This document shows positions 7,862 through 54,083 of a DNA stretch of 64,000 bases, piece by piece. The notes under the pieces are model-generated. The model made no database searches. It was not told where the DNA came from and saw only the letters and a list, made by a program, of their open reading frames with translations. This DNA is from Escherichia phage S143_2: the sequence record MZ189261.1; one strand, written 5' to 3'. Every line of letters starts with the position of its first letter. Position 1 is the stretch's first letter. Position numbers and translations under genes: made by a program.

Positions 7862-8392
7862 TTAAGCTTTACGAGGAGACACATAGCGAGTGATTTCAGA
7901 TTCTTTAACAACTCGGAAGTCACCTAAGAATACGATATTGTATAACTTTTCGCCATCTTCAACCCATTGGTCACTAATGAAGCCACACATGGTATCAGTT
8001 GTGCTTGGATAACCGTATTCGTCGATGTAATCAAATTCTTTATCGGTTATAAATTCAACGCCTTTGCAAAGGGCCCATTTGAACTGTACATTAGGCTCAG
8101 TGGATTCACATACGTATCCATCACATGATTCAACTTCTTCAACAGAAGAAAAGTGTGCAGGTGCAACTTCTTCGCTTGAAGCAAATTGGACTCGTATATG
8201 TTTTTCCAGGAATTTAGGACTTACGTAAGCATACTGGGCATCTTGTCCGCCAAAACTGGGCATGATTCGAACTTTAACTTCTTTAACACGTCCCATGCCG
8301 TTAGTACGAAGCCCTGCGACTTCAACCAGACGACCTGCAGCTTTAGAACGAGAAGCAGGAGATACACGAAGGATTTCACCAATAGTAATCAT
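7862..8392 (-). CDS. KOW-like small protein, MotB-like paralog 2
   Basis: paralog of 7433..7852; ORF track start (TTG) trimmed to ATG (MITIGEILRV). Confidence 0.5.
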   Translation of the reverse strand: MITIGEILRVSPASRSKAAGRLVEVAGLRTNGMGRVKEVKVRIMPSFGGQDAQYAYVSPKFLEKHIRVQFASSEEVAPAHFSSVEEVESCDGYVCESTEPNVQFKWALCKGVEFITDKEFDYIDEYGYPSTTDTMCGFISDQWVEDGEKLYNIVFLGDFRVVKESEITRYVSPRKA

Positions 8393-8422
8393 ATTTTTTC
8401 TCTCTTTGTTTAAGTTGAATTC

Positions 8423-8452
8423 ATTATACTCCAACCATCCTTGGTTGTAAAC
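8423..8452 (-). promoter_or_regulatory. early promoter cassette class A
   Basis: minus-sense GTTTAC, 18 nt with caaccaaggatggttg hairpin, TATAAT; same cassette at 49593 and 50613. Confidence 0.55.
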
Positions 8453-47642: not shown

Positions 47643-47902
47643 TTAAAATATTCTCGCAGTTGGTCAAATCCACCAATGTGACTTCCATCAGGAGCAAACA
47701 CTTGAGGCATAGTCAATCCGACTTGTGATTCACGTCCAAGCTTAACCAGAAGCTCAGCAATTTTCTCATCATCGAACACACCTTTTTCTGGCATAACATT
47801 AATGAATTCAAATGGCTGTTTCTTAACAGTCAGCAATCGTTTCGCATTATCACAATAAATGCATTTATGAATAGTAGAGTCGTACCCGTACACTTTAAAC
47901 AT
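47639..47902 (-). CDS. nrdC: thioredoxin NrdC
   Basis: MFKVYGYDS..HKC.YCDNAKRLL thioredoxin active site; 87 aa after trimming. Confidence 0.85.
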   Translation of the reverse strand: MFKVYGYDSTIHKCIYCDNAKRLLTVKKQPFEFINVMPEKGVFDDEKIAELLVKLGRESQVGLTMPQVFAPDGSHIGGFDQLREYFK

Positions 47903-48308
47903 TATTTTTCCTTTCATCGATTAAATATGCAATGCCAAATACAATACATGTAATAAAACCTGTGATACAGATAGAAACCAACAACACTGTACCAAAGAAC
48001 CAAATAAGGTTATCTTTAGTAGTTTGTTTGATATCCATCTCACGAATTTCTATAGCTATCGTATCACCTTTATTCAGAAGCGTATAAAACGATGGCGATA
48101 CACGCCTGTCAAAAACTCGTCCTTGCTCATCTTTATAGACTGCAATAAATTCTAATTTAGAATATTTTCCTGTAGATTGGCCTGAGATTAATTCCACTAC
48201 CTCCACAGGAATTACTTTAGTTTCCATGTAAGTATTCTGGCTGTTCCAAATGAACGGAACGATGGCAAAAACTAAAGCTGCAATAAAACAACGAAGGCTG
48301 TATCTCAT
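47895..48308 (-). CDS. membrane protein (137 aa)
   Basis: two hydrophobic segments. Confidence 0.5.
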   Translation of the reverse strand: MRYSLRCFIAALVFAIVPFIWNSQNTYMETKVIPVEVVELISGQSTGKYSKLEFIAVYKDEQGRVFDRRVSPSFYTLLNKGDTIAIEIREMDIKQTTKDNLIWFFGTVLLVSICITGFITCIVFGIAYLIDERKNNV

Positions 48309-48613
48309 TATAATGTTCTCTCAAATTTGTGGAAGCATTTACGGCATTTCAATTTCAAGTTATCGGTGGTCCAGTTAACCAGTTGGACTTGGATAGTTCC
48401 ACATTCCGGACATGGATGTTTTGCTGCCGATTTGGCAGCATTTTCACGTCGTTCAACCATTTTCATTATTTCGTTCCATGCCGGAGGAACGAACTCTTCT
48501 TCACCGTGGATTTTATCTCGCTGAACAAATTCAATCTTTGAACTATCGTCAATAAACTTAACCAAGCCATGATTAGTGCTCATATCAATATCCTCTAAAA
48601 GACGTAGTTTCAT
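48308..48613 (-). CDS. zinc-ribbon protein (101 aa)
   Basis: CPEC...CRKC. Confidence 0.5.
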   Translation of the reverse strand: MKLRLLEDIDMSTNHGLVKFIDDSSKIEFVQRDKIHGEEEFVPPAWNEIMKMVERRENAAKSAAKHPCPECGTIQVQLVNWTTDNLKLKCRKCFHKFERTL

Positions 48614-49563
48614 TATAACACCTCAATGGCATTTCGTAAGCCATCCGCTTTCGCATTCAGAGCTTTTAACGATTTAGTTTGTTCTGCAATCTGGGCTTCG
48701 ACTTCTTTCAGACGAGATTTGAGATATTCGCGTTCTTCTCTTAAGTTATCAACTTTTTCTGCTTTAGGCTCTTTAATAGGCTTAGGTTTATACGTATTAG
48801 GGTTCTTCAGCTTAATTTGAATACGAGAACTGAATAACATTGAACCATTATCTTCAGTTTCGCTGAACATTTCAACAACATCCATAGTCTGTAACATCAT
48901 ACGAAGTTTATAAGACAGCGAACGAACGGTTTTGTTGCGCTTATTAATTTCTTCGGCTTTCATGGTACCGAGATTACGTGAGTAGTAATAAGGAACCTGG
49001 ATATCAATTGACAATGATGCGTTACCATTACCAGTTGGTTTGAATACTGCAGTAACCCAATCTTTAACATGAACTTTATTTGTACGACCATCACCGCCTG
49101 TGAATAATTTACGTGAATGTTTAAAAAGCATATTCACTTGGTTATTGAATTCACAAGCAAATTTATCAGCAAATTTAGTTTCAGGAATGGTAGATAACCA
49201 ATCAGCCAAATGAGTCTTTTTAACATCGTTAATAATAGTAAATTCAACTAAATCAGTTTTAGATGTCACAGATTTAATAAAGCTCGGCTTCATAAAGTTT
49301 TTAATGTTATCACGAGCTACAGTAGAAGATAATAAACGAGAACGTTTGAACCATTGAAGCAGTGTCCCTAATGAATGAGAATACGCATTCTGAGTATCTT
49401 TACAGATATGATTTTCTTGGCCTGTGTATGTACCAAAATCGCGAAGAATACCACTTACTACAACTCGGTGTGGAACATCAAATCCTAATGAACCAGAAGC
49501 ACGTTGGGCATGAACGTTAGCGATAAGACCTGCAAAATAATCAATGTAATGTGAACGTGTCAT
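48613..49563 (-). CDS. hypothetical protein with C-terminal coiled coil (316 aa)
   Basis: heptad-rich C-terminal about 60 aa; first of three similarly built genes. Confidence 0.55.
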   Translation of the reverse strand: MTRSHYIDYFAGLIANVHAQRASGSLGFDVPHRVVVSGILRDFGTYTGQENHICKDTQNAYSHSLGTLLQWFKRSRLLSSTVARDNIKNFMKPSFIKSVTSKTDLVEFTIINDVKKTHLADWLSTIPETKFADKFACEFNNQVNMLFKHSRKLFTGGDGRTNKVHVKDWVTAVFKPTGNGNASLSIDIQVPYYYSRNLGTMKAEEINKRNKTVRSLSYKLRMMLQTMDVVEMFSETEDNGSMLFSSRIQIKLKNPNTYKPKPIKEPKAEKVDNLREEREYLKSRLKEVEAQIAEQTKSLKALNAKADGLRNAIEVL

Positions 49564-49592
49564 AATATTTTCCTCTCGTTAAGATAGAAAGA

Positions 49593-49621
49593 TTATACTC
49601 CAACCATCCTTGGTTGTAAAC
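49593..49621 (-). promoter_or_regulatory. early promoter cassette class A
   Basis: minus-sense GTTTAC, 17 nt with caaccaaggatggttg hairpin, TATAAT. Confidence 0.55.
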
Positions 49622-49625
49622 TGAT

Positions 49626-50585
49626 TTATGATTTTAATGCATTCATTGCGTTAAAAAGTTTAGAGTACTGCAACTGGAGCTTGGTAACTACTTGTTGAGC
49701 ATCACGAAGCTTAGCTTGTGCTTTGTCAAGTTCAACAGACAGTTGGTCCACAGTGGCTTTAATTTGATTATAATAGTAATCTTCGGCCGGAAGAAGGTCA
49801 TTAGAAACATTTAGTTTTACTGCAGACAGTTTGCACACATTTGGCAAACCTTTAAACATTGATTTACCCGAAGTAGAATAAGCACTTAGGACTTCGGCCT
49901 GTTCAATTGGGGTCCCAGTAAGCGATGCTTCAAACAATGCATTTTCCTTTTTAAGATTTTGATAGTATTCAGAGTCTTTGTGCCACCATGGCGCAGGAAC
50001 CTTTTTACCAATAGATACACGAGCCTGGATAGCGATATGGCCCTTATTCTTGATAGGGTCGATAATATTAAGCTCACGAGAATAAATTGCTTTAATCTGG
50101 TGAATATTATCACCTAACACTTCCAACGCTCGGTGGAATACACGAGCAACGTTATCATTCTTAGGTTTATACGTAAGAGTGAACTCGTTCTCACTGATAA
50201 CCATGATTTCCAACTTATCGTAAGTATATTTCAAATGTTTCATGTTAATTGCTTGAGGACGAATACGAGAAGCAATGGCCATCAGATTGTTAAGGTTATT
50301 CCGGAACTGCTTAGCGAAATATTGTCCTTCACCACCAATACAAAAATTACGAAGTTTCTGTTTGGCTAATAAACGGCTGAACTCACCATTTTTAATGAAC
50401 TCTTTAACGGGTGTGTTAGTAACGCATTCAAATTGAGTAAACTTACGAGAAGTAATCCCATAATACGAACAGATTTCCTCAATCTCTTCAGGAGTCTTTA
50501 CAGGCATACGGATAGGATTAGGACCTGGGGTATATGCGTTCGAGGTAAATTCTTTGATAAGTTCTCTACGTGTAATAAAAGCCAT
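49626..50585 (-). CDS. hypothetical protein with C-terminal coiled coil (319 aa)
   Basis: ORF track. Confidence 0.55.
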   Translation of the reverse strand: MAFITRRELIKEFTSNAYTPGPNPIRMPVKTPEEIEEICSYYGITSRKFTQFECVTNTPVKEFIKNGEFSRLLAKQKLRNFCIGGEGQYFAKQFRNNLNNLMAIASRIRPQAINMKHLKYTYDKLEIMVISENEFTLTYKPKNDNVARVFHRALEVLGDNIHQIKAIYSRELNIIDPIKNKGHIAIQARVSIGKKVPAPWWHKDSEYYQNLKKENALFEASLTGTPIEQAEVLSAYSTSGKSMFKGLPNVCKLSAVKLNVSNDLLPAEDYYYNQIKATVDQLSVELDKAQAKLRDAQQVVTKLQLQYSKLFNAMNALKS

Positions 50586-50612
50586 TTTATATTCCTCATG
50601 TTGAAAAATTTA

Positions 50613-50641
50613 TTATACTCCAACCATCCTTGGTTGTACAT
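50613..50641 (-). promoter_or_regulatory. early promoter cassette class A (variant -35)
   Basis: same ctccaaccatccttggttg core, TATAAT, -35 TGTACA. Confidence 0.5.
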
Positions 50642-51636
50642 CATTCCTTAAGAAGTTTTACTACCTGAATAAGATTAGCTCGTTCTGTTTTATTTTTACC
50701 GTTTAAGCCTGCTAATCGTGAGATTTCATCGTCAGTCTGTTGAATAGTTACATTAAGTTCGTTAATCAAAGCTTCAAAGTATTTGATTTGCTCAGCATGT
50801 TTTGATTCAAATTTCTGAACTGGAATAACGTCTTGGTTTAGTTCATCAATAAGGTCTTTAAGAGCATCTTCTTGGTTGATATCATATTCAACTTCTTTTA
50901 TTTCTTCAACGAGCTCGTCTTTATATCTAACGTCTTTTAGTCCTGGTGCTGGTCCTGAAATCTCTTCTTTAAGAGTACAAACATATCCAATACGATATCC
51001 AATGCCGTCTCGCTTGATATCAACTTCGTCAATAAATCCACAATGTTTAAGACCAGAGCCGATTAAGTCAAAATATCCTTGACGTCGTCCTTCAAACGTT
51101 ACACGAACTACTAAGACAGTTTTACCTGCAACCTTTTGAAGCTCACATTTATAAAAGTCTGTTGAACCTGAATAACGTGGATGAGTTTTAAAGTTCATCT
51201 GACGATCTAGGCCCATTTGTAAGCGTGCTGATACGGCCATAAAACGTGTTTGGTTCTCGTTAAGATGAGCAACAATCCATTTCAAAGGCATTTTACACTG
51301 TTCACGACCGAACAAATCAGTATATCCTAGATTACGCAGAATGTTGTTAGAGTTAATCATCGACAGAACGTTAAGTTTATTCAGCGCGCTGAAGATTCCA
51401 TCGGCCATTGATTTTCCGTAACCTTTACACGCTTTAATAAGCGCTCGCGGTAGATTAGTATAGATTTCAGACGGCATATGAAAATCAAATTTACTAGTCA
51501 GTAATTGATGAACTTGGATAGCAATTTGCTCATAATTAAGCGCTCTGCGATCATTATGGTCTTTAAACCACACTTTAATCTGTGAAGCACATAAACCGTT
51601 AATTTCATGTTTTACCGCATCAGATGTAATGCTCAT
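50641..51636 (-). CDS. hypothetical protein with C-terminal coiled coil (331 aa)
   Basis: ORF track. Confidence 0.55.
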   Translation of the reverse strand: MSITSDAVKHEINGLCASQIKVWFKDHNDRRALNYEQIAIQVHQLLTSKFDFHMPSEIYTNLPRALIKACKGYGKSMADGIFSALNKLNVLSMINSNNILRNLGYTDLFGREQCKMPLKWIVAHLNENQTRFMAVSARLQMGLDRQMNFKTHPRYSGSTDFYKCELQKVAGKTVLVVRVTFEGRRQGYFDLIGSGLKHCGFIDEVDIKRDGIGYRIGYVCTLKEEISGPAPGLKDVRYKDELVEEIKEVEYDINQEDALKDLIDELNQDVIPVQKFESKHAEQIKYFEALINELNVTIQQTDDEISRLAGLNGKNKTERANLIQVVKLLKE

Positions 51637-51698
51637 AACTATTTCCTCAGATTGAATTGGAACTCAAAACCATTATAACCCTTCCTTGGGTAAAGCGT

Positions 51699-52226: not shown

Positions 52227-52244
52227 GTTTTACCTCCAGTAGTT

Positions 52245-52282
52245 GATAGGTCTATAATAACATAACCATAGACCTTGTAAAC
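52245..52282 (-). promoter_or_regulatory. early promoter with stem-loop
   Basis: minus-sense GTTTAC, 17 nt, TATTATAGACCTATC; aggtcta...tagacct arms. Confidence 0.55.
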
Positions 52283-52284
52283 AA

Positions 52285-52572
52285 CTAAAAGAAACTTTTT
52301 TCGGTATTTTTTCCACTGAACCAAACAGACTTCGGGATTTTTTGTAATTTTTCAGATTTAAGTTTCTCTTCCTGTTCTTTCTTATATACACTCTTGTCGT
52401 ACTGGAGCATCTCTATGGCATTCTTTTGCAAATGATCTAAGGTAATTAAGGCTTTAGTTTTTCCTTTCAAGGAAGAGTCCTGGCGAACTTCCTCGCTATA
52501 TTGCATCGTAGAACTAACCATACGATGTGCATACAGTTCGACTGCGGCTTTGATTTTTTGCATAAAATCCAT
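52285..52572 (-). CDS. hypothetical protein (95 aa)
   Basis: ORF track. Confidence 0.45.
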   Translation of the reverse strand: MDFMQKIKAAVELYAHRMVSSTMQYSEEVRQDSSLKGKTKALITLDHLQKNAIEMLQYDKSVYKKEQEEKLKSEKLQKIPKSVWFSGKNTEKSFF

Positions 52573-53712: not shown

Positions 53713-53720
53713 TTCGTTTC

Positions 53721-53758
53721 GATAGGTCTATAATAACATGTTTAAAGCAAAAGTAAAC
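53721..53758 (-). promoter_or_regulatory. early promoter
   Basis: minus-sense GTTTAC, 17 nt, TATTATAGACCTATC. Confidence 0.55.
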
Positions 53759-53760
53759 AA

Positions 53761-53979
53761 TTATTTGCGACGAGATTTTTTGGTAAGAGGTTGAAAGAAC
53801 ACTGCTTTACCGGCTGGGGTTAAGGTGACTCGTAATGCATTACCGATTCCTAAGGATGCTTTAACTAGACCTTTAGCTTTCAGTTCACCGAATGCTTGAC
53901 GTTGGTCTGCGTCACGAGTGTTAACCATAAGACCTTTATCACCTGCTTCACGAATCATTTCTAACATTTTGGTTTTCAT
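53761..53979 (-). CDS. small basic protein, possible DNA-binding
   Basis: ORF track 53761..54036 trimmed to ATG (MKTKMLEMI) behind GAGGAGAA SD. Confidence 0.45.
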   Translation of the reverse strand: MKTKMLEMIREAGDKGLMVNTRDADQRQAFGELKAKGLVKASLGIGNALRVTLTPAGKAVFFQPLTKKSRRK

Positions 53980-53998
53980 TTTGTTCTCCTCTTGTTTT

Positions 53999-54036
53999 GA
54001 TAGGTCTATAGTATCATATCCTAAAAGCATGTACAC
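53999..54036 (-). promoter_or_regulatory. early promoter (variant -35 GTGTAC)
   Basis: minus-sense GTGTAC, 18 nt, TACTATAGACCTATC. Confidence 0.45.
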
Positions 54037-54054
54037 TACTTTTTAAAAATATTT

Positions 54055-54083
54055 TAACCCCCTAAAGGGACCCGAAGGTCCCC
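54055..54083 (-). terminator. UUCG-tetraloop hairpin
   Basis: minus-sense gggacc-ttcg-ggtccc. Confidence 0.45.

What the first reader, a model, noticed from the sequence alone, without database searches (positions are those of the whole stretch)
48613..51636. Three consecutive 316-331-aa proteins with a shared build (globular N-domain plus C-terminal coiled coil)
Three adjacent genes of similar length each end in a heptad-rich, Lys/Glu/Gln-rich segment of about 60 aa. Primary sequences differ, so they may be diverged paralogs or swapped variants. Each is preceded by an early promoter, two by the class A cassette. This is the T4 nrdC.x hypervariable neighbourhood.
Basis: inference. Interest (0 to 1): 0.45.

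Follow-up and report, generated by a model that had tools for sequence, protein, structure and literature searches.

The report
Three phage accessory genes, coiled-coil tails
Three neighbouring genes of an RB69-type T4-like coliphage are its versions of T4 nrdC.3, nrdC.5 and nrdC.6: dispensable proteins of one shared build, each ending in a coiled-coil helix, in a region where three nearby T4/T6 genes are known anti-defence genes; the middle gene is present or absent between phages at a repeated promoter cassette.

Summary
Three minus-strand genes of 316, 319 and 331 aa lie at 48613-51636. In each, the strongest heptad periodicity in the protein is in the C-terminal 42-59 residues.

They are not new genes. 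They are the Mosigvirus (RB69-type) alleles of T4 nrdC.3, nrdC.5 (Pfam DUF7235) and nrdC.6, and over 130 sequenced phages carry near-identical copies.

- **Paralogy.** Profile comparison links the NrdC.3/4 and NrdC.5 families (hhalign 87.5%, E 3.5e-6). NrdC.6 is linked only weakly, though in the same alignment register and above every control. Low-confidence AlphaFold models of the first and third protein show the same order of elements: helical N-domain, alpha/beta core, disordered linker, terminal helix.
- **Promoters.** Two genes sit behind an identical 27-nt promoter-hairpin cassette. The third has a short-spacer variant that looks like a MotA-type middle promoter, not an early one.
- **Gain and loss.** The two cassette copies flank the nrdC.5-type gene exactly. 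In 21 of 155 related phage records that gene is precisely absent, with one cassette left at the junction.
- **Function.** This is inferred, not shown. T4 NrdC.5 overcomes the Dsr1 defence, and nearby T-even genes block OLD (T6 Gp49.2) and Septu (T4 NrdC.1). Counter-defence is therefore the best guess.

Verdict: new members of a known, poorly characterised kind; modest interest.

The parts
48613..49563 (-). w316: 316-aa protein, the Mosigvirus allele of T4 NrdC.3 (family PF26897 as precomputed for its close homologues)
   Evidence: ORF. 57% identity to T4 NrdC.3 over the full length, E 2.5e-120. phrog_1435 at E 1.8e-104. PF26897 on all 33 homologues. Its stop overlaps the start of the nrdC.2 homologue at 48613.
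48616..48741 (-). Codes the C-terminal amphipathic helix of w316 (aa 275-316)
   Evidence: Heptad score maximum, shuffle fraction 0.002. Unbroken register. AF2 helix 275-315 with pLDDT 75-85, following a disordered linker at 255-273. It is the most conserved segment between alleles, 74-83% identity.
49592..49618 (-). Promoter-hairpin cassette, copy 1 (TACAACCAAGGATGGTTGGAGTATAAT), in front of w316. With the two preceding bases (to 49620) it reads TTTACA, 17 nt, TATAAT. The spacer holds the hairpin CAACC-AAGGAT-GGTTG.
   Evidence: 11 of 12 sigma-70 consensus match. Sequence read. Three exact copies in the window against 0 expected. Hairpin scan.
49626..50585 (-). w319: 319-aa protein, member of the NrdC.5 family (Pfam DUF7235)
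   Evidence: DUF7235 at E 5.1e-123, 410.8 bits against a cut-off of 30. T4 NrdC.5 hits the same model at E 5.3e-126. 24% identity to T4 NrdC.5 over 308 aa. hhalign between the w319 group and the T4 NrdC.5 group gives 97%. Present in 132 phage records, all RB69-type.
49629..49784 (-). Codes the C-terminal amphipathic helix of w319 (aa 268-319)
   Evidence: Heptad maximum, shuffle fraction 0.002. Seven unbroken heptads with no Pro or Gly. No structure model was made for this protein.
50612..50638 (-). Promoter-hairpin cassette, copy 2, in front of w319 (-35 reads TGTACA, extending to 50640). Together with copy 1 it flanks w319 as a 1020-bp direct repeat.
   Evidence: repeat family D2. Natural genomes that lack w319 keep exactly one cassette at the junction.
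50641..51636 (-). w331: 331-aa protein, the Mosigvirus allele of NrdC.6 (family PF26899 as precomputed)
   Evidence: ORF. 33% identity to the 295-aa T-even NrdC.6 over the full length, E 3e-32, at the same position after nrdC.8. phrog_2257 at E 7e-127. Only 6 clusters among 1.84 billion representative proteins.
50644..50820 (-). Codes the C-terminal helical tail of w331 (aa 273-331)
   Evidence: Heptad maximum, shuffle fraction 0.014. The register is continuous but weak at GLNGKNK. AF2 gives helices 273-294, 302-309 and 316-330 at pLDDT around 50. The tail is 52-58% identical to T-even and Gaprivervirus NrdC.6, against 18-22% for the N-terminal and beta parts.
51672..51697 (-). Variant hairpin-promoter in front of w331: CGCTTTA, then CCC-AAGGAA-GGG, then TATAAT. 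It looks like a MotA-box middle promoter and starts directly after the nrdC.8 stop codon.
   Evidence: Read. The sigma-70 scan does not list it. Hairpin scan. The same element follows nrdC.8 in T4, where it precedes nrdC.7, and in phage VR5, where it precedes nrdC.6. The MotA-box reading is my inference from the published consensus (TGCTTtA, 11-13 nt, TAnnnT; a TGCTT Mot box is quoted in PMC4122927).

Best explanation
The three genes are the RB69-type (Mosigvirus) alleles of T4 nrdC.3, nrdC.5 and nrdC.6. T4 carries a fourth gene, nrdC.4, which is missing here. They are non-essential, separately promoted, pre-late genes in the hyperplastic stretch between nrdC and nrdC.8.

The proteins are most likely very old paralogs that keep one architecture:
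- a helical N-terminal domain of about 75-95 aa;
- an alpha/beta core introduced by a conserved helix (motif F..F.NN...LMA..SRI);
- a Pro/Lys-rich disordered linker;
- a 42-59-aa amphipathic heptad helix that ends in L-x-[NQ]-[AV]-[ILMV]-x-x-L-K.

The conserved parts are the motif helices and the tail. I infer that these provide a constant function, most simply coiled-coil self-association. I infer that the fast-diverging, mosaic N-terminal and beta parts provide specificity.

By analogy with T4 NrdC.5, which lets T4 grow on cells carrying the SIR2-type Dsr1 defence, and with nearby T-even genes (T6 Gp49.2 against OLD, T4 NrdC.1 against Septu), the most likely job is counter-defence: each protein binds and neutralises a different host immunity protein early in infection.

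Each gene is a module bounded by hairpin-containing promoter cassettes of the PeSL type. Recombination between cassette copies adds or removes modules.

Shown here: gene identity and family membership, heptad tails, the cassette repeats, and the precise presence/absence of the middle gene. Inferred: common ancestry of all three, oligomerisation, and anti-defence function.
For: Identity:
- BLASTP and synteny with T4 and eight other loci.
- Pfam DUF7235 for w319 and for T4 NrdC.5.
- PF26897 and PF26899 precomputed on the homologues.

Paralogy:
- hhalign NrdC.3 vs NrdC.4: 97%.
- Merged NrdC.3/4 vs NrdC.5 families: 87.5%, E 3.5e-6, score 49.3 over 134 columns.
- NrdC.5 vs NrdC.6 scores 25.1, and NrdC.3/4 vs NrdC.6 scores 22.1.
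- All three pairwise alignments put the same motif in the same register: A135 = B90 = C121.
- Controls score lower: 13.6-18.2 for reversed sequences, and at most 19.7 in 51 comparisons with 17 unrelated neighbouring gene families.

Shared build:
- The AF2 secondary-structure order is the same for w316 and w331.
- Heptad tails are present in all three.
- Foldseek of both models against BFVD returns, after the orthologues, only proteins of 231-374 aa from other T4-like phages at 13-15% identity.
- One of these is a 302-aa Acinetobacter phage 133 protein that lies between gene 49 and the nrdC.11 homologue. It has the same motif and a heptad tail.

Conserved tail, variable rest, and mosaic NrdC.3 alleles.

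Cassettes and module gain or loss. The PeSL model is described in PMC2839356 and PMC4122927.

Dispensability:
- T4 nrdC.3-.6 are scored non-essential in the HIDEN-SEQ supplement.
- nrdC.1-6 were lost spontaneously during genome reduction (PMC9825161).
- Natural deletions exist.

Anti-defence context:
- NrdC.5 against Dsr1 (PMC9391042).
- T6 Gp49.2 against OLD (PMC13096335).
- NrdC.1 against Septu (bioRxiv 10.1101/2025.11.20.689424).
Against: - The three window proteins show no pairwise BLAST similarity.
- The links to NrdC.6 are individually insignificant (E 0.015 and 0.043; hhalign probability 1-3%).
- Tail-only HMMs built without one family do not recover that family. The shared terminal motif could therefore be convergent coiled-coil composition, and I defined it after seeing the sequences.
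- Both AF2 models are of low confidence (mean pLDDT 58.6 and 47.3; pTM 0.33 and 0.31). Fold-level statements and Foldseek hits (TM 0.2-0.34) are correspondingly soft.
- No model was made for w319.
- w319 is only 24% identical to T4 NrdC.5, so the Dsr1 phenotype cannot simply be transferred to it.
- No phenotype of any kind is published for NrdC.3, NrdC.4 or NrdC.6.
- Pfam keeps the three as separate families.
Confidence: 0.6

Rival explanations
1. The three proteins are evolutionarily unrelated accessory proteins that happen to lie side by side. Each independently carries a C-terminal coiled coil, which is a common and easily evolved element. The shared build is convergence plus similar gene length.
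For: No pairwise BLAST similarity. Leave-one-family-out tail HMMs fail. The hhalign links to the NrdC.6 family have probabilities of only 1-3%. Pfam and PHROGs keep three separate families. The structure models are of low confidence.
Against: The NrdC.3/4 and NrdC.5 families are linked at E 3.5e-6 over 134 columns. The three weak or strong alignments all agree in register on the same motif. All real scores exceed all 57 control comparisons. The order of secondary-structure elements is the same in two independent models. Foldseek cross-hits are confined to T4-like phages.
Confidence: 0.2
2. The proteins are paralogs but not anti-defence factors. They act in host take-over or phage physiology, for example as modulators of a host or phage enzyme or of transcription, or as scaffolds binding a phage component. 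The NrdC.5-Dsr1 effect would then be indirect, for example through changed levels of the Dsr1 trigger.
For: No mechanism is known for NrdC.5; only a plating rescue was shown. No domain, PADLOC, NCBIfam or PDB match points to any activity. The strongly conserved tail and motif helices suggest a constant partner, which could be a phage or a core host protein.
Against: The genes are dispensable in laboratory hosts and variably present among close relatives. They diverge very fast between genera, at 18-24% identity, while the neighbouring nrdC.8 and nrdC.10 stay at 78-83%. They also lie among proven anti-defence genes. This pattern is typical of arms-race genes rather than of housekeeping take-over functions.
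Confidence: 0.25
3. The heptad tail is not an oligomerisation coiled coil. It is a docking helix for one common partner shared by all paralogs, so the family acts as adaptors that bring different N-domains to the same site.
For: The tail is the best-conserved segment in every family. All families end in a similar motif, L-x-[NQ]-[AV]-[ILMV]-x-x-L-K. The w331 tail is broken at Gly/Asn-rich positions and AF2 models it as three helices rather than one.
Against: The a/d positions are canonical Leu/Ile/Val over 6-7 heptads in two of the three proteins, as in self-associating coiled coils. The similarity of tails between families is not statistically detectable. Nothing identifies a partner.
Confidence: 0.15

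Closest known systems
T4 NrdC.5 (Pfam DUF7235), the early gene that lets T4 overcome the Dsr1 SIR2 defence of E. coli ECOR17 (Srikant, Guegler and Laub 2022, PMC9391042)
   Same: w319 belongs to the same Pfam family (410.8 bits against a cut-off of 30; T4 NrdC.5 scores 420.6 bits). It has the same position in the gene order, similar length, the same heptad tail and the same dispensability.
   Different: Only 24% identity over 308 aa. The N-terminal 60 residues and the beta region are 17-19% identical. Whether it acts on Dsr1 or on another target has not been tested. In the window it is flanked by two identical cassettes and is absent from 21 of 155 related records.
T4 NrdC.3 and NrdC.4 (uncharacterised; NrdC.3 family PF26897)
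   Same: w316 is the NrdC.3 allele: 57% identity to T4 and 76% to RB10-type phages, full length, directly upstream of nrdC.2. NrdC.4 is a detectable paralog of NrdC.3 (hhalign 97%).
   Different: nrdC.4 is absent from this phage and from RB69-type phages in general. NrdC.3 alleles are mosaics: the RB10-type N-terminus is 89% identical to T4 while its core is 77-91% identical to the window allele.
NrdC.6 of T-even, Dhakavirus and Gaprivervirus phages (uncharacterised; PF26899)
   Same: w331 occupies the same position after nrdC.8. It has the same conserved block (LS.IN...ILRN ... NQ.R..A..ARL..G.D.QM.FKT) and the same tail.
   Different: 33% identity. It carries an extra acidic insert of about 30 aa before the tail. 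In T4, nrdC.7 lies between nrdC.8 and nrdC.6, whereas here the nrdC.7 homologue sits next to nrdC. The T4 reference copy has a frameshifted tail.
PeSL cassettes (promoter-early stem-loops) of T4-type phages (Arbiol et al. 2010, PMC2839356; Comeau et al. 2014, PMC4122927)
   Same: Repeated intergenic elements that combine a sigma-70-like early promoter (TTTACA, 17 nt, TATAAT, matching the TTTACW-N17-TAYWAT consensus given for the PST/T4 pair) with a hairpin. They are located in a hyperplastic region and flank accessory genes that differ between close relatives. Recombination between copies explains the precise loss of w319.
   Different: Here the hairpin lies inside the promoter spacer and has a conserved AAGGA(T) loop with covarying stems. 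It lacks the G-tract/C-tract stem described for RB49/phi1. Terminator activity and mini-circles were not tested.
DSAD1, the phage inhibitor of the DSR2 SIR2 defence (PMC10973363 and PMC10981675, seen)
   Same: A functional analogy only: a small or medium phage protein that neutralises a defence-associated sirtuin. This is what NrdC.5 does genetically for Dsr1.
   Different: No sequence or fold relationship was found or tested here. DSAD1 is described in those papers as acting directly on DSR2, whereas direct binding by NrdC.5 has not been shown.

Membership tests
NrdC.5 family (Pfam PF23882, DUF7235) | Score above the Pfam gathering threshold over the whole model | tested here: met
   w319 scores 410.8 bits against a cut-off of 30 and covers model positions 1-307 of 307. 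T4 NrdC.5 and the phage VR5 homologue hit the same model.
NrdC.5 family (Pfam PF23882, DUF7235) | Ability to overcome the Dsr1 defence (the only published phenotype, known for the T4 protein) | not testable with these tools
   The phenotype is from PMC9391042. w319 is 24% identical, so transfer of the function is an inference.
NrdC.3 family (PF26897) | Full-length homology to T4 NrdC.3, at the position directly upstream of nrdC.2 | tested here: met
   57% identity over 316 columns, E 2.5e-120. Its stop overlaps the start of the nrdC.2 homologue. PF26897 is precomputed on all 33 homologues. The local Pfam copy lacks this model, so there was no direct hmmscan test.
NrdC.6 family (PF26899) | Full-length homology to NrdC.6, at the position downstream of nrdC.8 | tested here: met
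   E 3e-32 to the 295-aa T-even NrdC.6 over residues 27-330. Alignment A1 has 47 invariant columns. PF26899 is precomputed on the homologues.
One NrdC.3/4/5/6 superfamily (proposed here, not a curated family) | Significant profile-profile similarity between the families | tested here: inconclusive
   NrdC.3/4 vs NrdC.5: 87.5%, E 3.5e-6. NrdC.6 vs the others: E 0.015 and 0.043, in a consistent register and above all 57 controls, but with probabilities of 1-3%.
One NrdC.3/4/5/6 superfamily (proposed here, not a curated family) | The same core fold | tested here: inconclusive
   The order of secondary-structure elements is the same in the AF2 models of w316 and w331, but pLDDT is 58.6 and 47.3. 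There is no model of w319. Foldseek cross-hits to other T4-like phage proteins have TM scores of 0.2-0.34.
Coiled-coil proteins | Heptad repeat with hydrophobic a/d positions over at least 4 heptads, free of Pro | tested here: met
   There are 6, 7 and about 8 heptads. The third protein is interrupted by Gly/Asn-rich positions.
Coiled-coil proteins | Actual oligomerisation through the helix | not testable with these tools
   Only monomer AF2 was available. The helix is modelled as free-standing after a disordered linker.
PeSL regulatory cassettes | Repeated intergenic motif holding a sigma-70-like early promoter | tested here: met
   TTTACA or TGTACA, 17 nt, TATAAT. There are 3 exact 27-nt copies in the window against 0 expected. 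The element before w331 does not meet this feature because its spacer is too short.
PeSL regulatory cassettes | Stem-loop within the motif | tested here: met
   CAACC-AAGGAT-GGTTG in the window. Stems covary in T4, VR5, SP18 and F2 (CCAC/GTGG, CATCC/GGATG, TCC/GGA, ACCC/GGGT).
PeSL regulatory cassettes | Insertions or deletions between close relatives are bounded by the motif | tested here: met
   21 of 155 records match a synthetic junction of w331, one cassette and w316 at 100% coverage in one piece. The gene map of phage F2 confirms this.
PeSL regulatory cassettes | Terminator activity and formation of mini-circles | not testable with these tools
   These are experimental features described in PMC2839356.

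The most novel reading that the evidence does not exclude
NrdC.3, NrdC.4, NrdC.5 and NrdC.6, together with 231-374-aa proteins of Acinetobacter, Aeromonas, Serratia, Erwinia and Enterobacter T4-like phages (several of them near 300 aa), would form one ancient superfamily of modular counter-defence proteins. A conserved scaffold (motif helices plus a C-terminal coiled coil, possibly allowing mixed oligomers of paralogs) would present rapidly evolving, recombining recognition domains. Each paralog would disarm a different host immune protein, with Dsr1 being the first known target. The genes would be traded between phages as promoter-flanked cassettes, somewhat like an integron array of anti-immunity genes.
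Probability: 0.25. Interest if true: 0.65.

Novelty: new member of a known kind. Interest (0 to 1): 0.35.

Why it matters
- The stretch between gene 49 and nrdC.5 in T-even phages is emerging as an anti-defence island, with published activities against OLD, Septu and Dsr1. Most of its larger genes still have no function.
- If nrdC.3, .4, .5 and .6 are one paralog family with a constant scaffold and variable recognition parts, the single known phenotype gives a concrete hypothesis for three or four more genes per phage. It would also help explain host-range differences among therapeutic T4-like phages.
- The clean presence/absence polymorphism of the nrdC.5-type gene at an identical 27-nt cassette is a ready natural experiment. 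There are 21 records without the gene and about 132 with it.
- For this window itself the result is ordinary. The genes are near-identical to those of many sequenced RB69-type phages.

Tried and rejected
- **Word-indexed protein search:** the three searches returned only close relatives (33, 19 and 4 clusters).
- **IMG/VR scans:** these gave only 7-8 loci.
- **tblastn in the phage collection:** at relaxed E-values it did not reach beyond Tequatrovirus, Mosigvirus, Dhakavirus and Gaprivervirus.
- **Exhaustive HMMER search with the NrdC.6-type profile:** it found 6 clusters in 1.84 billion proteins and no bridge to the other families.
- **Solved structures:** the PDB sequence search gave nothing below E 0.03. 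Foldseek against the PDB gave no hit at E <= 0.001. Repeated H-NOX and lambda gpU matches at E 0.02-0.1 were dismissed as noise from a poor model.
- **Other libraries:** NCBIfam and PADLOC gave nothing. Pfam side hits (PHL, Mer2, zf-C4H2, CENP-F) are all below threshold and come from the coiled-coil region.
- **A contaminated early result:** a first hhalign score of 99.4% between the NrdC.3 and NrdC.5 groups was an artefact of P0033, a natural NrdC.5-NrdC.3 fusion present in both alignments. I removed it and repeated the comparison.
- **An unresolved accession:** I guessed that BFVD entries E5EYP0 and E5EYP1 came from phage SP18. The SP18 map does not fit, since its NrdC.4 is 329 aa and its NrdC.5 is split. 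Their source remains unidentified.
- **GenBank 'thioredoxin' labels:** I rejected these labels on the three genes. None of the three has any thioredoxin match. My reading, not tested, is that the label carries over from the nrdC.x gene names.

Full report
**What is there**

The window is a T4-like coliphage of the RB69 type. The 4.3 kb around the finding is 99.1% identical to Shigella phage SSE1 and 97-98% identical to many Escherichia phages. The finding lies between nrdD, gene 49 (endonuclease VII) and nrdC on one side, and homologues of nrdC.8, nrdC.9 and nrdC.10 on the other.

The ORF list shows three consecutive minus-strand genes at exactly the stated coordinates: 48613-49563 (316 aa, 'w316'), 49626-50585 (319 aa, 'w319') and 50641-51636 (331 aa, 'w331'). 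Each has a GAGG ribosome-binding site. Each matches a PHROG of unknown function over its full length, at E 1e-97 to 1e-127.

**Which genes they are**

Comparison with T4 and with eight other loci gives a simple positional and sequence correspondence.

- **w316 is the NrdC.3 allele.** It is 57% identical to T4 and 76% identical to RB10-type phages.
- **w319 is the NrdC.5 counterpart.** It is only 24% identical to T4 NrdC.5 over 308 aa. However, both score above 400 bits on Pfam DUF7235, whose cut-off is 30.
- **w331 is the NrdC.6 counterpart.** It is 33% identical to the 295-aa T-even protein, at E 3e-32.

T4 has a fourth gene of this kind, nrdC.4, between nrdC.5 and nrdC.3. It is absent here and from RB69-type phages generally.

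The families are narrow:
- w319-type genes occur in 132 phage records, all RB69-like.
- NrdC.3 occurs in 653 records as three allele classes.
- An exhaustive HMMER scan of 1.84 billion representative proteins found only six clusters for the NrdC.6 type.

**The C-terminal helix**

I used a simple 28-residue heptad score: hydrophobic a/d positions minus the rest, with a Pro/Gly penalty. Its whole-protein maximum lies in the C-terminal tail of all three proteins. Only 0.2%, 0.2% and 1.4% of 500 shuffles reach the observed value. Two neighbouring proteins used as controls are not significant.

The registers are unbroken over residues 275-316 of w316 and 268-319 of w319. The register is continuous but weakened at a Gly/Asn-rich stretch in residues 273-331 of w331.

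AlphaFold2 models the w316 tail as one free-standing helix (275-315, pLDDT 75-85) after a disordered Pro/Lys-rich linker. It models the w331 tail as three helices at low confidence.

The helix is 42-59 residues rather than a uniform 60. The Lys/Glu/Gln enrichment is marginal for w319.

**Are they paralogs?**

The three window proteins have no pairwise BLAST similarity. Profiles built from the loci and database homologues give a graded picture.

| Comparison | hhalign result |
|---|---|
| NrdC.3 vs NrdC.4 | 97% |
| w319 group vs T4 NrdC.5 group | 97% |
| Merged NrdC.3/4 vs merged NrdC.5 | 87.5%, E 3.5e-6, score 49.3 over 134 columns |
| NrdC.5 vs NrdC.6 | score 25.1, E 0.015 |
| NrdC.3/4 vs NrdC.6 | score 22.1, E 0.043 |

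The last two are weak on their own. However, all three alignments place the same motif in the same register:
- FACEFNNQVNMLFKHSRKL in w316
- FAKQFRNNLNNLMAIASRI in w319
- IVAHLNENQTRFMAVSARL in w331

A second colinear motif lies upstream: SRLLS..IKNF, SRLLAKQKLRNF and LSMINSNNILRNL.

Controls score lower. Reversed alignments give 13.6-18.2. Fifty-one comparisons with 17 unrelated gene families from the same loci give at most 19.7.

An early 99.4% link between NrdC.3 and NrdC.5 was an artefact. It came from P0033, a natural NrdC.5-NrdC.3 fusion protein present in both alignments. I removed it and repeated the comparison.

Tail-only HMMs built without one family do not find that family. The shared ending L-x-[NQ]-[AV]-[ILMV]-x-x-L-K is therefore only suggestive.

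**Structure**

Only two AF2 jobs were available. Both models are of low confidence: w316 has mean pLDDT 58.6, and w331 has 47.3.

Their secondary-structure order is nevertheless the same:
- four or five N-terminal helices;
- a long helix carrying the shared motif (about 120-155);
- two or three strands, then a helix, then two strands;
- a disordered linker;
- the terminal helix or helices.

Foldseek against BFVD returns the orthologues first. After those it returns only proteins of 231-374 aa from other T4-like phages, at 13-15% identity, with E down to 9e-6 and TM scores of 0.2-0.34. The phages are Erwinia Cronus, Serratia PS2 and CBH8, Enterobacter IME523, Acinetobacter 133 and Acj61, and Aeromonas PX29.

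The Acinetobacter phage 133 hit is a 302-aa protein (Acj133p108) encoded between gene 49 and the nrdC.11 homologue. It has an ELNYLIASFARV motif and a heptad tail.

No solved structure is related by sequence or by Foldseek.

My reading is as follows. A shared build is supported. Common ancestry is likely for the NrdC.3/4 and NrdC.5 families, and plausible but unproven for NrdC.6.

**Pattern of conservation**

Within each family the tail and the motif region are the best-conserved parts. The N-terminal helices, the beta region and the linker diverge fastest.

| Family | Conserved parts (identity) | Variable parts (identity) |
|---|---|---|
| NrdC.6 | tail 52-58%, motif block 40-53% | 18-22% |
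| NrdC.5 | tail and motif region 38-39% | 17-23% |

NrdC.3 alleles are mosaics. The RB10-type allele has an N-terminal 70 residues 89% identical to T4, but a core 77-91% identical to the window allele. The flanking nrdC.8 and nrdC.10 stay at 83% and 78% identity between this phage and T4.

**Promoter cassettes and module turnover**

An identical 27-nt element, TACAACCAAGGATGGTTGGAGTATAAT, precedes w316 and w319. It occurs a third time at 8423-8449. None is expected by chance.

With the two preceding bases it reads TTTACA (or TGTACA), 17 nt, TATAAT. This fits the consensus given for T4/PST PeSL cassettes. Its spacer holds a hairpin, CAACC-AAGGAT-GGTTG.

The element before w331 is a shorter relative. 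The CGCTTTA comes directly after the nrdC.8 stop codon, followed by CCC-AAGGAA-GGG and TATAAT. There are only 11-12 nt between a TTTAC(C)-type -35 hexamer and the -10, but 13 nt between GCTTTA and the -10. I read this as a MotA-box middle promoter rather than an early one, which is an inference. The same element follows nrdC.8 in T4 and in phage VR5.

Across phages the loop AAGGA(T/C/A) is kept while the stems covary: CCAC/GTGG, CATCC/GGATG, TCC/GGA, ACCC/GGGT and TTATACC/GGTATAA. In the 64-kb window this hairpin-plus-TATAAT pattern occurs four times, and three of those are in front of the three genes. Shuffles give a mean of 0.6 and a maximum of 3.

The two exact copies flank w319 at a spacing of 1020 bp. 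I built the junction expected from recombination between them: the w331 3' end, one cassette, then the w316 5' end. Twenty-one of 155 matching phage records contain it as a single 100%-coverage match. The gene map of phage F2 shows the 331-aa gene directly followed by the 316-aa gene. The rest agree with the 132 records that carry w319.

Other natural rearrangements in the array are a nrdC.5-to-nrdC.3 deletion in phage ACG-C40 and the P0033 fusion. This is the behaviour described for PeSL-bounded modules.

**Function**

Nothing in Pfam, NCBIfam, PADLOC or the PDB suggests an activity.

Published evidence:
- T4 nrdC.5 expressed from a plasmid restores growth of a T4 deletion clone on cells carrying the SIR2-type Dsr1 defence of ECOR17 (PMC9391042).
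- Two neighbouring T-even genes inhibit other defences: T6 Gp49.2 against OLD (PMC13096335) and T4 NrdC.1 against Septu (bioRxiv 10.1101/2025.11.20.689424).
- T4 nrdC.3-.6 are all scored non-essential in that study's supplement.
- nrdC.1-6 were lost spontaneously during T4 genome reduction (PMC9825161).

I found no paper on NrdC.3, NrdC.4 or NrdC.6 function.

The best-supported mechanism is therefore counter-defence. In this view, early or middle proteins bind and neutralise host immunity proteins through their variable parts, assembled through a conserved coiled coil. For w319 this rests on family membership at 24% identity. For w316 and w331 it rests on paralogy, genomic context and evolutionary behaviour only.

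**Verdict**

The genes are ordinary members of known, uncharacterised T4-type families and are near-identical to those of many sequenced phages.

This analysis adds four things:
- the exact correspondence to nrdC.3, nrdC.5 and nrdC.6;
- evidence that these families, plus nrdC.4, are remote paralogs with a conserved scaffold;
- the published anti-Dsr1 link;
- a clean demonstration that the middle gene is a cassette-bounded presence/absence module.

Noticed in passing
L001 10067-10894 (T4 reference NC_000866, nrdC.6), compared with L003, L004, L007 and L009: The T4 reference NrdC.6 (275 aa) diverges from all other T-even copies (295 aa) in its last 20 or so residues, as if frameshifted, and so lacks the conserved coiled-coil tail. 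The T4 annotation used by the HIDEN-SEQ study lists nrdC.6 as 891 nt, which is the full length. The reference may therefore carry a strain-specific mutation or a sequencing error.
   Followed up: partly
P0033 (299 aa; seen on 3 contigs, the longest 167 kb); L017 5805-6213 (phage ACG-C40): Natural deletions within the array. P0033 joins T4-type NrdC.5 residues 146-272 to NrdC.3 residues 141-316. ACG-C40 keeps only the first 71 codons of nrdC.5 and the last 70 or so codons of nrdC.3. P0033 contaminated two of my alignments until I removed it.
   Followed up: yes
window 8423-8449 (minus strand), upstream of the ORF at 7862-8434: A third exact copy of the 27-nt promoter-hairpin cassette lies 40 kb away. 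It sits between a 225-aa gene and an unrelated ORF whose longest reading (from TTG, 7862-8434) is 190 aa. The likely start is the internal ATG downstream of the cassette, giving about 176 aa. This copy is a potential partner for long-range recombination.
   Followed up: partly
window 52243-52301, 53719-53777, 53997-54055: A second family of repeated promoter-like intergenic elements (GTTTAC... TATTATAGACCTATCAA on the minus strand). It lies in front of the nrdC.8 and nrdC.10 homologues and the next gene upstream.
   Followed up: no
window 49592-49618, 50612-50638, 51672-51697; L001, L005, L018, L020 intergenic regions: The hairpin in these cassettes keeps the loop AAGGA(T/C/A) while its stem changes by compensatory substitutions between phages and between positions. 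In several copies a GGAG follows the hairpin, immediately before TATAAT. A role in the upstream transcript, such as 3'-end stability, termination or RegB-type processing, is possible but untested.
   Followed up: partly
window 47895-48308 (minus strand, 137 aa): The gene next to nrdC is a homologue of the T4 membrane protein NrdC.7 (40% identity, E 2e-25). In T4, nrdC.7 lies between nrdC.8 and nrdC.6, and the position next to nrdC holds nrdC.1, the reported anti-Septu gene. None of the eight window proteins I compared matches T4 NrdC.1.
   Followed up: partly
GenBank annotations under hits H8, H13, H20, H25 and others: Many phage records label these three genes, and up to seven genes of the nrdC.x stretch, as 'thioredoxin'. 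My reading, not tested, is that the label carries over from the gene names. None of the three has any thioredoxin-family match.
   Followed up: yes
L019 28264-29172 (Acinetobacter phage 133, Acj133p108, 302 aa): A protein in the syntenic interval between gene 49 and the nrdC.11 homologue was hit by the w331 model in BFVD (D9I642, E 1.4e-3). By eye it carries the shared motif helix (ELNYLIASFARV), a Pro-rich linker and a heptad C-terminal helix. HMM and hhalign scores against the three families are not significant.
   Followed up: partly
P0060 (129 aa) and P0061 (88 aa): Two short database proteins match only the NrdC.6 tail. Their N-terminal parts differ. They are probably fragments or frameshifted gene calls, but a tail-only or tail-swapped product was not excluded.
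   Followed up: no
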